Assembly (NCBI RefSeq): GCF_018977255.1
Contig: NW_024704750.1
Coordinates: forward strand, 9,300,001 to 9,364,000
Length of the DNA: 64,000 bases
Direction of reading: 5' to 3'
Origin: Callorhinchus milii
Lineage: Eukaryota
Positions 35,801 through 44,800 of this stretch are shown in pieces; within the stretch, counting starts at the first letter, position 1, and each line of letters opens with the position of its first letter. The position numbers are program-made.

Positions 35801-38800
35801 ATGCGTGAGGGGCGCCATGTAAATGCAAGTTGTTGTTGTTCATTATGCTGAGTCGGCTGATCCAGGTACAAGGAGGAATGCTGCAATTGGCCCCTGTTCC
35901 TTTTGATAGGGAGAGAAAAATGAGCCGGGATCAGGATTCCTGCTCTTCATTATTTTTGCAGTGCCCCCTGCTGGAATGTGTCTGTCCGTCGCCCAGGAGA
36001 CACAAGCGGTCAATGAAAACAGTGACTGTTTTCTGGGAGTCAGTTGACTGGAGGGGATATTTGCAGGTGAGCTGAATTTTTAAATATCATTTAAATTTCC
36101 AATCCAAGGTTTTTTGGATGAGGGGTAGGCTGGGCCTCAGGACGGAGTTTTTTTTAATACACAGAATAATAATAATAATCCTTGCATTTGATATAGTGAT
36201 TTGTCACGTTGTAGGATGTCTCAAAGCGCTTCACAGCATATACTGTAAAGTGAATTGACGACGTATTTTGTTGTGAAATGTGGCAGCCATTTGCACACAG
36301 CAGTGCTCCACAAACAGTCGTGGATTGAATGGCCATTTTATTATTTTTTTAAGGAATTGTTACCCCCGGAAAAGCAATCGACTAAAAACCGGGTTCCTAC
36401 TTACTGCTAGGTAAACAGGCATGTGGAGTAAGGAAACTCACCCAATGTTTCGCTCTGCCGGGAATCGAATCCAGGTGTCTCGCTTGTGACTGGAACCCAT
36501 TGCCTGAAAGGGTGGTCGAGGCCGATTCGATAACTACTTTTAAAAACGCGTTGGATGGGTATTTGAGGAGCACGGGTTTGCAGGGTTATGGGGAAAGGGC
36601 TGGGGAGTGGGATTGACATTAATTGCTCTATTCAAAGAGCCAGCACAAACTCGATGGGCCGAATGGCCTCTTTTTGTGCTGTATAATTCTATGATTCTAT
36701 GAGGCGAGCGCTCTAACCACTTTGTGTTGTGATGTGGCAGTGTGTGTGTGTGTATGAAAATTAACTTTGTCCAATTGAAAGACCTAGGCGCGAGTAAATA
36801 TACTAATTCTATGATTGAATCTACAGTGAGAACTAAATGTTGTTTTATGTTTTGACCTCCTGTTCCTTCATTTTTGATCTCCCCATAGCCCAATACCATT
36901 TGAGGCCCAAACAGTAGCTAATTTTTCTTCCTAACAGTTAACTGTTCATTCTTCTGTCAGCCCACACACTGAGTGTTTACAGATTATTTAAGCTTCTGCA
37001 AGATATCCACAAGAGGGAAGCCAAATCTGTTCATGAAAAATGTTACTGAGATTCTGGTAAGGTCTGTTGAAGCTTGTGAAAAACTCTATTGCTTACAATT
37101 GAATAAATCATGGGAATATCTTGATATTGACCCAAGTAAAGCTTTTGCCCTTTTGCTGAAATATAAATGTTGCCTAACGTATGGTTAATTGAATACGTAA
37201 AGCTAGCACAAACCATACTTTTCTAATGTATGGTTTGTGCTAGCTTTACGTATTCAATTAACAAGTAATGGTAAGAATGCAGTGCAAAGTCAACAATTAA
37301 TAATAATAATCCTTGCATTTGATATAGCGCTTTTCACGTCGGGAGGACGTCCCAAAGCGCTTCACAAAACACACTGTAAAGTGAATTGACTGTATATCTG
37401 TGGGCGAACGCGGCAGCCAATTGCGCACAGCAATGTCCCACAAACAGTCGTAGATTGAAAATGACTGATTTTTTTTTGGGGGGGGGATTCCATTTTAATT
37501 GCAGCACTATTGATATAAGAGTCGGTATGCAAAAGGTGGAAGACAAGGGGCATGAGCAAAATATGAATTTGTACCATGCTTTTGTGGAGGTGACAGGTCT
37601 TTCTAACCTTCAGCAGAGATAGCATTTGTAACTTTTCCAGCTTTGGTTATCAGCAAAACTTCATGGAAAAGCAGTCAATTACATAATTAGATGCTATGCA
37701 CACTGGTGTTTACAGTTACTGATGTATCTCAATCACAGTTTATTTTTGGCATTGTTTTTTCAACACTGGAAGTATTACTTACTAACAATGTGGTGTTGTT
37801 AGTTTCATTCAGTAGGGAGTAATAATAATAAATAATAATCCTTGCATTTGATATAGCGCTTTTCACGTCTTCTAGACGTCCCAAAGTGCTTCACAGAACA
37901 TACTGTAAAGTGAATTGACTGTATATTTGTGGACAAACGTGGCAGCCAATTGCGCACAGCAATGTCCCACAAACAGTCGTAGATTGAAAATGACCAATTT
38001 ATTATTGTTTTGTTTTCTTGGAGGGATTATTATTAGGCGTGTGGAGTAAGGAAACTTGCCCAAGGTTTCGCCCTGCTAGGAATTGAACCCAGCTCTCGCT
38101 TGCAAAGCAAGTGCTCTAACCACTGAGCCACAGGACTCCAATTGGAATCAAATCCAAGACAACAGGTAGTTGGAAACATCAGGAATGTTTAAAGAAAAGA
38201 AATCAGGAATGCAAAAGAATTACAATTTAGTCTATATTATTTATGCACTTTTAAGTTTAATTTTGAACAATTGACAGTGCATGGAACCTTCCACAACAAA
38301 CCCTTCTCGTCGAATCCCATAAATTAAATAGGAAAAATATACTTTTTCAAGACCCAACTATTGAAGATGTTCAGGAAATTGTGTTGCTTCGAAGGCTGGT
38401 TATTTGTCATTTTGGTGCAAGATAAAGGAGCTCTAGGGTTTTTTTATACAAAAATTATAAAAAGTTGTCAAAAAATCATCCACATGCTTGTGTTCAGGCT
38501 TTTGTTTTCAGCATCAAACCACTTTAGTCAGGCAAACATCACCTACGATTTTTAAGGAGGTTAGTTTTTGAAGTTGCTTTATACGATGTGTAAAATCAAA
38601 TACCTGCTGCCCGTCAACCTGCACACGGAATTGCTGGTGTTCACACAGGATTTCCATCTGAAAGCAACATTTCAGTTGTTACAAATTGAACATCTATCAC
38701 AGAATTCAGTCAGACTCCAGCTCTAGTTGGAGCAACAATAAATGCGTTCGCTGAACAAAGTTAAGGAGCAAATTAATTTACTAGCGGTCTTTGTTTTTAC

Positions 38801-41800: not shown

Positions 41801-44800
41801 TATCCTCCACCTGCATCAAAGTGATCAATGAGCCAACAAGCTGATCTGTGACATTATTGACTTATTTAACAAAAGATTCGAGTGTCCCCTTCCCATTACA
41901 CATGTCATCCCTCCAGAATGGGGCAATGCAGGGGCGAGGAAGCTGTGGTCAAATGTATCTCCAGGTTCCCTACAATGGCAGGCATCTAGTTCCAAATAAC
42001 CTAATATTTACTTCTTTGTCTTGCTTTTATCTCACTGGTGTTCTATCAAACTAAGGGCTTGTAATCCCAGACGTCTGTGGGTTTGTGAGTATTGTGTGAA
42101 GTTATGGGACAGATGCCTTTTCAAACGCTGCAATGGAGCAATGTTTGGTGCTTCCAAAAGTCGAGGATAATGTGTCCCAGCAAAAATGCCTGTTAAGCAA
42201 AACCATTGAACGTCACAGTTCAGTTTACTTATGGTTTGCCGAATTGCAGCTGAACCGACCTTGCAGTAAAGGGCACAAGTGTTGTTCTACTCAGGATTTT
42301 CCACTGTTTTGTTCCCCTTTCCATCTCGTATTAGCACATTTCCCTTGTGAATGCCCTCCATCAATGTTGACTGCTTGTAGCGCTCTGCAAGATCGACTCA
42401 GTGACTGGTCTCTCTCTCTCTCTCGTGTTTTTTTTATATATTGTTGCTTGTTTTCCTACCTTGCTTGCTCGCCTTTTCATTTGCAAGGGCTCTGGCAACC
42501 TTCCAAAACCTTCCCATTGCTTTTACCCAAATCAGCATTCCTTGGGTGGGGCAACATCATTTACTGAGGTATCTATGCCCACTGCACCATATTGTCAATT
42601 CATCAGTTTCCCCACTCCTCTCCCCACCACTTTACACACAGGTTGAATTCAGCTCTTAAACGTTAGGGGCGATTGCTGATTTTCATCCCAAACTGATGTT
42701 CTTCTGTTCCCTTCTGAAACATTCGGATCTAATTTGTGATCCAATGGCCAGAAACCGAAAGCATTTTCTCTGTTTACATTGCATACATGTTCACCTGTTT
42801 TGCTGTATCCAATCTCATCGATGTCCCAGTTGCCCTGTGAACATTCTTACCCAGTTACTCCCAGCTCATGGTGACCTGTGGTATTCCATGTGACTGGATT
42901 TGGCTCAAACGCAACTCTCCTTGAAAGTGATGTTTTGCAAGTCAAAGATCAAACAGCCCATTTAAGGGACCATCCAAAACTCGTTTTCACAAGAGAAATT
43001 AGCAATAAACTGGGGCAGGACTCAAAAGCCTTATTCGCACTCATATACTCCGAAAAATATTTGCACACACGTGCATCAGTAATTTATTTTTTTAAATGCT
43101 TTCTTTTTTTACAGTATAATGTTTGGAAGCCCGTGTACTCTTATGGACTGTGGCTGGTTCCCTAACTCCAGTACTTGCTGTGTGCTGTCGGCACTCTGTC
43201 CTGAGCACGTTTGAGTTGTGTTTAATCTTGACATTTTTTTTTAACGAGTTAATCATTTGATGCCCGAGTGGCCCTTTGCCCATCAAGATCTGTCGGCGTG
43301 CGGACCTTACAAGGCAGATCTAACACAGGACTGTCGTTATCACTCTTCTTAAACAGAAAATAACCCACCAGGTGTGTGCCAGACAGACAGACAGACAGAC
43401 ACACACACACCCAGTAAAGGTGACACGCACAGGTGTGTGTGTGTGTGTGTGAGCAGAATCGCCCTTCAACTTCGAGAAACTTATCCCAACTCTACCTTTT
43501 AGGCTGCGAATGAACGATCCCAATAATAGTAATCCTCATCGATGGTTTCAGCCCATTTCGGATCTCGCCGACAAAGGGCCGAACCTGTGTGAACAATTAA
43601 GACGTGACAGTCCATGTGAAGGCAGAAAAAGGCAACACGTTCAGATCGCATTTCCTCCTCCTCCTCCTCCTCCTCCACTCCACCCCCGACTCAATCACTC
43701 GGATTATTATTTGATAAGAGTTGCAAAACCGAGGTCTGTTTGGTTTTAAAGTTTTTGCACAAACACAAACACACACACACACATATATATATAATATATA
43801 TATGCAATGTATAACACAGCGACACTGGTCAAATAACTCCCACCGGGATTTTAAAAGGAACTTGCAACGTGTCACTCGTCTCAGTCGCGAAAAGCGTGGA
43901 AAATTGGGGAAATAATTTGAGATCGCCCATCAAACGAGTTTGCAAAATGAAGGAGGTGTGTGTGGGTGAAGGGGGAATAGTAATATTAATACGTAGATAC
44001 TACCCCTTACCCAAATTATGTTCTGTATTGGAAAAGTTACTTTGATGTTTAAATGAACCCGCTGGTCAGCTGGACTGCTTTGAAGTTGGAATGAGATCCG
44101 ACACGTGTTAAAGCAATGAGGATAATATAATACAAGTGGGTTTCAGTCACAATAATTTAGTAACCAGGGCTGCAAAAATCTTCAACCTCCGATTGACAAT
44201 CTCATGCATAACACCAACGGGGTATCTCTGCATTTCAAGGATTGCTTACCAGAGTTTTAAAACAACCCCCCCACACCCCCCAAAAAAAAACAGCGCAGCA
44301 ACATTTTACTTGATAGGATGATATTTATTTAAACAGTTCGGAAATAATCGAGGCCAAAAAATAAAATAAACCTGTAAACTTGTTTACAATGGATCATACG
44401 GGAAAATATCGAAAGGGTGAGTTCAGACTTACAGCTGCTGCTGACTTGTCGTTGTTGGCCATTCTCTCGCTTTCTTTCTGTTGGTTTCTTTCTGCTTTCG
44501 CTGCTGATGGTCGGAGTGGGGGTGGAAGTGTGAAGGGTCGATAGTTGCTGTCCATGAAAGAGCGAGTCGGTGCTGGAGGCGGACTGGCTACTGCATCCAT
44601 CCACCAGGGCAGGGCAAGGCAAGGCAATTCAAGGCAGGGCAATGCAAGACAATGCAATGCAGGGCAGGGCAAGGCAATGCAAGGCAGGGCAATGCAAGGC
44701 AATGCAATGCAGGGCAATGCAAGGCAGGGCAAGGCAATGCAATGTAAGGCAGGGCAATGCAATGCAAGGCAATGCAATGCAGGGCAATGCAAGGCAGGGC

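What the first reader, a model, noticed from the sequence alone, without database searches (positions are those of the whole stretch)
38514..44462. Hidden galectin-related (LGALSL/GRP-like) gene next to PLEK2
Seen: three short minus-strand exons (89, 175 and 144 nt) that the ORF track does not report splice in frame into an intact single galectin domain with GRP-type signatures (PYFPF, EILCEH, FDFxHRI). Known (recalled): human has no galectin gene between PLEK2 and ZFYVE26, and human LGALSL lies on 2p14, the same region as PLEK, the paralog of PLEK2. Inference: this is a second GRP lineage, an ohnolog from the PLEK/PLEK2 paralogon lost in mammals, rather than the LGALSL ortholog. It may already be annotated as 'galectin-related protein-like' in other non-mammals.
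Basis: partly seen in the sequence, partly recalled or inferred. Interest (0 to 1): 0.75.

Follow-up and report, generated by a model that had tools for sequence, protein, structure and literature searches.

The report
Elephant shark LGALSL2 gene, already known
The exons are real and encode the elephant shark's copy of LGALSL2, a galectin-like gene that mammals have lost, but the gene is already annotated and its origin was published in 2023, so it is ordinary.

Summary
On the minus strand a 30-nt first coding exon and exons of 89, 175 and 144 nt, all with GT-AG borders, give a 438-nt reading frame. Searched one by one, the three larger exons match consecutive parts of the galectin domain profile.

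The gene is not hidden. Every exon peptide is found letter for letter, in order, in RefSeq XP_007886271.1, "galectin-related protein A-like [Callorhinchus milii]".

The neighbours are PLEK2 and ZFYVE26.

In a 57-row tree that public protein sits in a clade of 36 non-mammalian proteins (support 100/99). This clade is separate from the canonical LGALSL clade of 13 rows (98/91). Forcing it into the canonical clade is rejected (p-AU 0.0028).

This lineage is published as LGALSL2 ("also called LGALSLA"). The paper gives its syntenic genes as vti1b, zfyve26 and plek2, calls it lost in mammals, and treats it as a genome-duplication twin of LGALSL (PMC10343441, passages read). A 2026 paper covers the chicken protein (PMC13696195).

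Not checked here: a separate canonical LGALSL in this genome, and RNA-seq junctions.

The parts
44433..44462 (-). Coding exon 1 of LGALSL2 (MANNDKSAAA), with the conserved start codon at 44462
   Evidence: Translation. ATG context GAGAGAATGG and donor GTAAGT. The 143/144-aa shark and ray orthologues begin at the aligned Met, MA(D/N)....
44463..44600 (-). In-frame 46-codon stretch that the RefSeq model adds as an N-terminal extension (ATG 44600). Probably 5' UTR.
   Evidence: It equals residues 1-46 of P0004. It is absent from the seven shark, ray and unnamed chimaera-like rows of A1; the gar row has a long, dissimilar N-terminal extension of its own. Blocks of residues 1-60 have mean pLDDT 52-77 and no secondary structure. 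It abuts a pentanucleotide repeat.
43496..43584 (-). Exon 2 (89 nt): strands S1 and F2 of the galectin domain
   Evidence: Translation. Pfam profile positions 1-26, E 0.13. Splice sites. Residues 57-85 of P0004. Strands E60-63 and E73-80.
39073..39247 (-). Exon 3 (175 nt): strands S3 to the start of F3, holding the vestigial sugar-site residues
   Evidence: Translation. Pfam profile positions 29-85, E 6.4e-12. PDB matches. Residues 87-144 of P0004. Site residues.
38514..38657 (-). Exon 4 (144 nt including the TGA stop): strands F3 to F1
   Evidence: Translation. Pfam profile positions 86-130, E 8.4e-10. PDB matches. Residues 145-191 of P0004.
28914..34646 (+). PLEK2 exons (PH, PH, DEP, PH), tail to tail with the galectin gene
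   Evidence: Pfam PH and DEP hits. The DEP frame's best PDB hit is 'Pleckstrin 2' 1v3f at E 1.6e-19, against pleckstrin at 0.0045.
52844..64000 (+). ZFYVE26 5' exons, head to head with the galectin gene and running off the window
   Evidence: Frame 54062-54634 hits PDB chain 8yad_C 'Zinc finger FYVE domain-containing protein 26' at E 7.1e-16. The start at 52844 is my own reading of the ORF list; Pfam found nothing there.

Best explanation
This is the elephant shark (Callorhinchus milii) orthologue of LGALSL2, also named galectin-like protein 2, galectin-related protein 2 or 'LGALSLA'. It has four coding exons and encodes about 145 residues.

The protein is one galectin-type beta-sandwich with the exon layout of a C-terminal carbohydrate recognition domain. 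Two of the three S4-strand sugar contacts are replaced (Asn to Thr, Arg to Ser). It therefore most likely does not bind beta-galactosides as classical galectins do. It probably acts through protein contacts or an unusual ligand.

Shown here: the exons, the fold, the clade, the neighbours and the residue changes. Taken from the literature: the genome-duplication origin, the loss in mammals, and the lack of glycan binding in the chicken protein. Inferred: what the shark protein itself does.
For: - Identity: each exon peptide is an exact, ordered substring of RefSeq XP_007886271.1 'galectin-related protein A-like [Callorhinchus milii]' (P0004).
- Fold: the AlphaFold model of P0004 has mean pLDDT 84.4, with the 13 ten-residue blocks covering residues 61-190 scoring 80-97. 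The best PDB fold matches are chicken and human GRP (5it6, 2jj6, 3b9c; TM to target 0.93-0.94, rmsd 1.3 A, 46-49% identity).
- Clade: in the 57-row tree P0004 lies with 6 shark and ray proteins (98/92). That group is sister to 29 bony-vertebrate proteins (97/87), and together they form a 36-row clade (100/99). The canonical LGALSL clade of 13 rows (98/91) is separate. Holding P0004 with the canonical clade costs 31.6 lnL units, p-AU 0.0028.
- Both lineages in one species: Simochromis diagramma has one protein in each clade (P0080, P0281).
- Mammals: of the 120 listed hits of the profile search, 114 carry an organism name and none is a mammal. Both mammalian proteins placed in the tree, P0180 and P0190, fall in the canonical clade.
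- Synteny: PLEK2 lies on one side and ZFYVE26 on the other. This matches Table 1 of PMC10343441 (LGALSL2: vti1b, zfyve26, plek2; LGALSL: ugp2, vps54, peli1).
- Sugar site: at the eight canonical positions H-N-R, V-N, W-E-R the protein has H-T-S, I-N, W-E-R.
- Chicken protein: PMC13696195 (abstract and sections 3 and 14 read, plus passages of the discussion) reports no significant glycan-array binding for chicken LGALSL2, and W kept in all LGALSL2 proteins analysed.
Against: - No transcript evidence from this species was available. The public model is a 'PREDICTED' one.
- I found no chondrichthyan canonical LGALSL, so 'two lineages in one shark genome' is not shown here.
- The elephant shark protein keeps 5 of the 7 classical contact residues (H, N, W, E, R), more than any other LGALSL2 row compared. 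Loss of sugar binding is therefore less certain for it than for the chicken protein.
- My crude check of the published 'F-face more conserved' pattern gave only a weak trend: whole strands 0.75 against 0.68, one-sided Mann-Whitney p 0.086.
- The canonical group used in the AU test was named after the tree had been seen.
Confidence: 0.93

Rival explanations
1. It is the canonical LGALSL orthologue that moved next to PLEK2 in the chimaera lineage (a simple translocation).
For: Sequence and fold are close to canonical GRP: 46-49% identity and TM 0.93-0.94. No second GRP gene of this species was recovered in my searches.
Against: The tree puts it in the other clade (100/99) and the AU test rejects the union (p 0.0028). 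Orthologues from sharks, rays, ray-finned fishes, coelacanth, amphibians, reptiles and birds follow the species tree within that clade. The paper gives the same plek2/zfyve26 neighbourhood for LGALSL2 across jawed vertebrates.
Confidence: 0.02
2. It is a decaying pseudogene or a chance set of open frames.
For: The exons are short and the only public model is a prediction.
Against: The 438-nt frame is intact and all four introns-exon borders are GT-AG. The protein is 72-76% identical to six shark and ray orthologues, and 60 columns are invariant in A1. The per-exon Pfam E-values reach 6e-12. An unnamed 994-nt contig encodes an uninterrupted 144-aa protein 92-93% identical (P0005). That contig is too short to hold introns of the sizes seen here, so by inference it is a spliced transcript of a near relative.
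Confidence: 0.02
3. It is a working beta-galactoside-binding galectin rather than a non-lectin galectin-like protein.
For: H105, N118, W125, E128 and R130 are in place. His at the first site occurs in 1 of 35 LGALSL2 rows (this one) and Arg at the last site in 3 of 35.
Against: The Asn and Arg of the S4 strand are Thr and Ser. From general knowledge of galectins, these two residues bond the galactose hydroxyls. The nearest relative P0005 has Gln at the His site, so the His looks like a recent change. Chicken LGALSL2 gave no significant glycan-array signal (PMC13696195, abstract).
Confidence: 0.08

Closest known systems
LGALSL2 (galectin-like protein 2, galectin-related protein 2, 'LGALSLA') of non-mammalian jawed vertebrates. 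Described by Gunther and Galuska 2023 (PMC10343441); chicken protein studied in PMC13696195.
   Same: Same clade and same plek2/zfyve26 neighbourhood. Single C-terminal-type domain whose middle exon ends in strand F3. Trp kept while the S4 contacts are lost.
   Different: It has His at the first S4 site, the only one of 35 rows to do so, and Arg at the last S6 site, shared with 2 others. The RefSeq model carries 46 extra N-terminal residues that the 143/144-aa shark and ray models lack.
LGALSL (galectin-related protein, GRP, HSPC159): human 2jj6 and 3b9c, chicken 5it6
   Same: Best structural and sequence match among solved structures. Also a galectin fold without the full sugar-binding set.
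   Different: Separate clade (98/91 against 100/99), and the union is rejected. The paper gives different neighbours: ugp2, vps54, peli1. LGALSL is present in mammals, where the Trp site is Arg in the two mammalian rows compared.
C-terminal carbohydrate recognition domains of tandem-repeat galectins (galectin-9, -4, -8; rat galectin-5)
   Same: Same beta-sandwich (TM to target 0.84-0.95, 34-40% identity). The paper states they share the short S3-F3 middle exon type.
   Different: Those domains are solved with lactose or LacNAc bound. Here two of the S4 contacts are replaced, and there is no second domain.

Membership tests
Galectin fold (Pfam Gal-bind_lectin, PF00337) | Match to the family profile above the curated cut-off of 22.1 bits | tested here: met
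   Exon 3 scores 45.5 bits and exon 4 scores 38.7 bits. Exon 2 alone scores 12.2 bits, below the cut-off. The three matches are colinear, at profile positions 1-26, 29-85 and 86-130.
Galectin fold (Pfam Gal-bind_lectin, PF00337) | Eleven-strand beta-sandwich | tested here: met
   The model of the public protein P0004 has 11 strands. It superposes on 5it6, 2jj6 and 3b9c at TM to target 0.93-0.94 and rmsd 1.3 A.
Classical beta-galactoside-binding galectins | Full set of contact residues H-N-R, (V)-N, W-E-R | tested here: not met
   The protein has H-T-S, I-N, W-E-R. The Asn and Arg of S4 are replaced (alignment to a nematode galectin; table).
LGALSL2 | Groups with LGALSL2 proteins of other jawed vertebrates, apart from LGALSL | tested here: met
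   36-row clade with support 100/99. The alternative placement is rejected at p-AU 0.0028.
LGALSL2 | Lies beside plek2 and zfyve26 (Table 1 of PMC10343441) | tested here: met
   PLEK2 ends about 3.9 kb from the stop codon. ZFYVE26 starts about 8.2 kb from the RefSeq start at 44600 (8.4 kb from the ATG at 44462). vti1b was not seen in the window.
LGALSL2 | Gene structure of a C-terminal-type domain (short middle exon, S3 to F3) | tested here: met
   Exon 3 encodes residues 87-144. The model's strand at 142-149, which is F3 by the usual strand order (recalled), spans the 144/145 exon border.
LGALSL2 | Trp of the sugar site kept while S4 key residues are missing (PMC13696195, section 14) | tested here: met
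   W125 is present, as in 35 of 35 LGALSL2 rows. The S4 Asn and Arg sites are Thr and Ser.
LGALSL2 | Absent from mammals | tested here: inconclusive
   None of the 114 organism-named hits among the 120 listed is a mammal, but 233 further hits were not listed. The two mammalian GRPs placed in the tree fall in the canonical clade. The claim itself comes from PMC10343441.
LGALSL2 | No classical glycan binding | not testable with these tools
   Only the chicken protein has been assayed (PMC13696195, abstract).
LGALSL (canonical GRP) | Groups with mammalian, bird and teleost 'galectin-related protein' | tested here: not met
LGALSL (canonical GRP) | Lies beside ugp2, vps54 and peli1 | tested here: not met
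   The window holds MPP5, ATP6V1D, EIF2S1, PLEK2 and ZFYVE26 instead.

The most novel reading that the evidence does not exclude
The LGALSL/LGALSL2 split may be older than the published model, which places it at the second genome duplication after the cyclostomes branched off. In my tree the lamprey and hagfish GRP-like proteins join the LGALSL2 side (91/83) rather than standing outside both lineages.

Separately, the elephant shark protein, with His105 and Arg130 restoring 5 of the 7 classical contacts, might bind some glycan where the chicken protein does not.
Probability: 0.12. Interest if true: 0.3.

Novelty: already known. Interest (0 to 1): 0.12.

Why it matters
It matters little as a discovery. 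The gene is in RefSeq for this species. The lineage, its PLEK2/ZFYVE26 synteny, its loss in mammals and its duplication origin were published in 2023, and a first functional study in chicken followed in 2026.

The check is still useful in two ways. It shows that reading raw sequence recovered a real, correctly spliced gene and the right evolutionary reading. It also shows that the conserved start is ATG 44462, not the longer RefSeq start at 44600.

LGALSL2 itself remains little studied. Only 2 papers in the searched library name it, so its function is open.

Tried and rejected
- Exon-by-exon protein searches with 'longer' lengths found only 5 and 12 relatives and no canonical LGALSL. The profile search listed only its best 120 of 353 hits, all of the LGALSL2 type.
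- Canonical LGALSL, cyclostome and outgroup sequences had to be drawn from the unnamed 50%-identity representatives and named by three look-ups. None was a chondrichthyan canonical LGALSL, so the 'second copy in this genome' test failed for lack of data.
- NCBI's 'A', 'B', 'A-like' and 'B-like' names do not track the two clades. Gar 'B', Takifugu 'B' and shark 'A-like' are all of the LGALSL2 type, while Phycodurus 'B-like' and an unlabelled Naja protein fall in the canonical clade. I therefore gave the names no weight.
- The F-face against S-face conservation check gave only a weak trend.
- An AU test does not reject a tree with the cyclostome proteins outside both gnathostome lineages (p 0.175), so the age of the split relative to cyclostomes stays open.
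- Six frames between the galectin gene and ZFYVE26 (45362-52108) gave no Pfam hit.
- Not used, as not needed or not suited: complex prediction, the protein atlas, the bacterial genome collection, and the Rfam and RNA tools.
- The exons were never joined by me. The joined-model search was left out, and the public RefSeq protein was used in its place.
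Full report
**What is in the sequence**

Reading the minus strand and translating each piece alone gives four coding exons:

| Exon | Coordinates | Length | Peptide |
|---|---|---|---|
| 1 | 44462-44433 | 30 nt | MANNDKSAAA |
| 2 | 43584-43496 | 89 nt | 29 codons and two bases of a split codon |
| 3 | 39247-39073 | 175 nt | third base of the split codon and 58 codons |
| 4 | 38657-38514 | 144 nt | 47 codons and TGA |

All borders are canonical GT-AG. The coding total is 438 nt, and the split codon AG+T reads Ser.

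**More than chance**

- Pfam's galectin profile (PF00337) matches exon 2 at positions 1-26 (E 0.13, sub-threshold), exon 3 at 29-85 (E 6.4e-12) and exon 4 at 86-130 of 132 (E 8.4e-10). These are three consecutive parts of one domain, in order.
- Against solved structures, exon 4's best three hits are chicken and human galectin-related protein: 5it6, 2jj6 and 3b9c (E 3e-12 to 3e-11).
- The same three are exon 3's best single-domain hits (E 2e-13 to 5e-12). Only two-domain nematode galectins, which match twice, rank above them.

**The gene is not hidden, and the window is elephant shark**

The exon-3 search returned P0004, which is RefSeq XP_007886271.1 'PREDICTED: galectin-related protein A-like [Callorhinchus milii]'. 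It is 191 aa long and 100% identical over the exon. Exon 4 gave the same result.

Taken one at a time, the exon peptides are exact substrings of P0004 at residues 47-56, 57-85, 87-144 and 145-191, with Ser at residue 86.

The public model differs only in starting 46 codons upstream, at ATG 44600. That stretch has several marks of a 5' UTR:

- It directly follows a (GGCAA)n array at 44608-44822.
- It is missing from the 143/144-aa shark and ray models (P0006, P0009, P0012, P0013, P0014, P0017) and from the unnamed 144-aa protein P0005, which begin at the aligned Met.
- It has no predicted structure.

The conserved start is therefore most likely ATG 44462, whose context GAGAGAATGG has A at -3 and G at +4.

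I took no contig for human.

**Surroundings**

Pfam and PDB matches of open frames identify these neighbours:

| Gene | Strand | Evidence |
|---|---|---|
| MPP5/PALS1 | + | 7m4r, E 1.8e-29 |
| ATP6V1D | - | 6xbw_H, E 1.1e-18 |
| EIF2S1 | + | E 2.1e-47 |
| PLEK2 | + | PH, PH, DEP and PH frames at 28914-34643; DEP frame hits 'Pleckstrin 2' 1v3f at E 1.6e-19 against pleckstrin at 0.0045 |
| galectin gene | - | this report |
| ZFYVE26 | + | 8yad_C, E 7.1e-16 |

**Which galectin it is**

A profile of ten relatives (A1) found 353 proteins, of which the best 120 were listed. Of those, 114 carry an organism name. They come from cartilaginous fishes, ray-finned fishes, coelacanth, amphibians, reptiles and birds, and none is mammalian.

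A full-library search with the public protein and three name look-ups supplied further named sequences:

- canonical 'galectin-related protein' from a porpoise, an elephant shrew, two birds, a lungfish and several teleosts;
- lamprey and hagfish GRP-like proteins;
- named tandem-repeat galectins to serve as outgroups.

I hand-picked 57 rows for taxonomic spread, using named proteins only and leaving out isoforms and the unnamed P0005. The tree used 145 columns and IQ-TREE with LG+C20. It shows:

- a canonical LGALSL clade of 13 rows (support 98/91);
- a second clade of 36 rows (100/99);
- inside the second clade, the window's protein with six sharks and rays (98/92), sister to 29 bony-vertebrate proteins (97/87), in an order that follows the species tree.

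One cichlid, Simochromis diagramma, has a protein in each clade.

Holding the window's protein with the canonical clade costs 31.6 log-likelihood units, p-AU 0.0028. The canonical group was named after I had seen the tree.

**Structure and sugar site**

The model of the public protein has mean pLDDT 84.4, with block means of 80-97 over residues 61-190 and 11 strands. It superposes best on chicken and human GRP (TM to target 0.93-0.94, rmsd 1.3 A, 46-49% identity), and next on the C-terminal domains of galectins 5, 4, 9 and 8.

By the usual galectin strand order (recalled), the exon 3/4 border falls in strand F3. That is the C-terminal-domain gene type the 2023 paper assigns to LGALSL and LGALSL2.

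At the classical contact positions H-N-R, V-N, W-E-R the protein has H-T-S, I-N, W-E-R. Trp is kept in 35 of 35 LGALSL2 rows. His at the first site occurs only in this protein, and Arg at the last site in 3 of 35 rows. The nearest relative, P0005, has Gln at the His site, so the His looks recent rather than ancestral.

**What is known**

Two papers in the searched library name LGALSL2.

PMC10343441 (Front Immunol 2023). I read passages, and section 3.7 in full. It states that:

- its syntenic genes are vti1b, zfyve26 and plek2, and those of LGALSL are ugp2, vps54 and peli1;
- the LGALS8+LGALSL and LGALSL2+LGALS3 loci are duplicates from the second whole-genome duplication;
- Callorhinchus milii was among the genomes used.

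PMC13696195 (Poult Sci 2026). I read the abstract, sections 3 and 14, and passages of the discussion. It reports that:

- the chicken protein is expressed in testis and epididymis;
- it shows no significant glycan-array binding;
- Trp is conserved while S4 residues are missing;
- the F-face is more conserved than the S-face.

My rough strand-level check of the last point gave only a weak trend: 0.75 against 0.68, p 0.086.

**Verdict**

**Open points**

- Whether this genome also holds a canonical LGALSL. None was recovered, and no eukaryote genome collection was on hand.
- Direct RNA-seq support for the junctions. The only hint is an unnamed 994-nt contig encoding an uninterrupted protein 92-93% identical (P0005), which I infer to be a transcript of a near relative.
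- The age of the split relative to cyclostomes. They join the LGALSL2 side at 91/83, but placing them outside both lineages is not rejected (p-AU 0.175).
- The supplementary files of both papers, which were closed.

Noticed in passing
window 44463-44822: A (GGCAA)n array with 25- and 50-nt periods, at 44608-44822, lies directly 5' of the RefSeq start codon at 44600. The 46-codon extension of the public model is absent from the 143/144-aa shark and ray models and has no predicted structure. The RefSeq N-terminus is probably over-extended.
   Followed up: partly
window 1397-34646: The gene order MPP5/PALS1 (+), ATP6V1D (-), EIF2S1 (+), PLEK2 (+) precedes the galectin gene. From memory this is the order on human 14q23-q24. 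ZFYVE26 then follows directly, whereas from memory human has several genes between PLEK2 and ZFYVE26.
   Followed up: partly
residues 105 and 130 of P0004 (window exon 3, 39073-39247): The elephant shark protein is the only one of 35 LGALSL2 rows with His at the first classical sugar-contact site, and one of three with Arg at the last site. That gives it 5 of the 7 classical contacts.
   Followed up: partly
tree (P0185, P0241): Lamprey and hagfish GRP-like proteins join the LGALSL2 side (91/83, long branches) rather than standing outside both gnathostome lineages. The AU test does not reject the outside position (p 0.175).
   Followed up: partly
names: NCBI's 'galectin-related protein A', 'B', 'A-like' and 'B-like' labels do not follow the LGALSL/LGALSL2 split. 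Gar and Takifugu 'B' and shark 'A-like' are of the LGALSL2 type, while a seadragon 'B-like' falls in the canonical clade.
   Followed up: yes
window 37292-37478, 37821-38007, 50350-50535; 41005-41320 and 47858-48173: There are dispersed repeat copies of about 180 nt (89-94% alike, both orientations). A 316-nt pair (81%) has one copy in intron 2 of the galectin gene and the other upstream of it. These are presumably SINE-like elements.
   Followed up: no
window 14827-15264 (-): A reverse-transcriptase fragment (Pfam RVT_1, E 4.2e-09) lies in the GC-rich block between ATP6V1D and EIF2S1.
   Followed up: no
window 50623-51045 and 50001-52000: A TC/TG-rich low-complexity array sits inside a block of GC 0.52 just upstream of the first ZFYVE26 coding exon. 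A similar GC-rich block (0.47-0.50) lies at 12-16 kb. Both may be CpG-island promoters.
   Followed up: no
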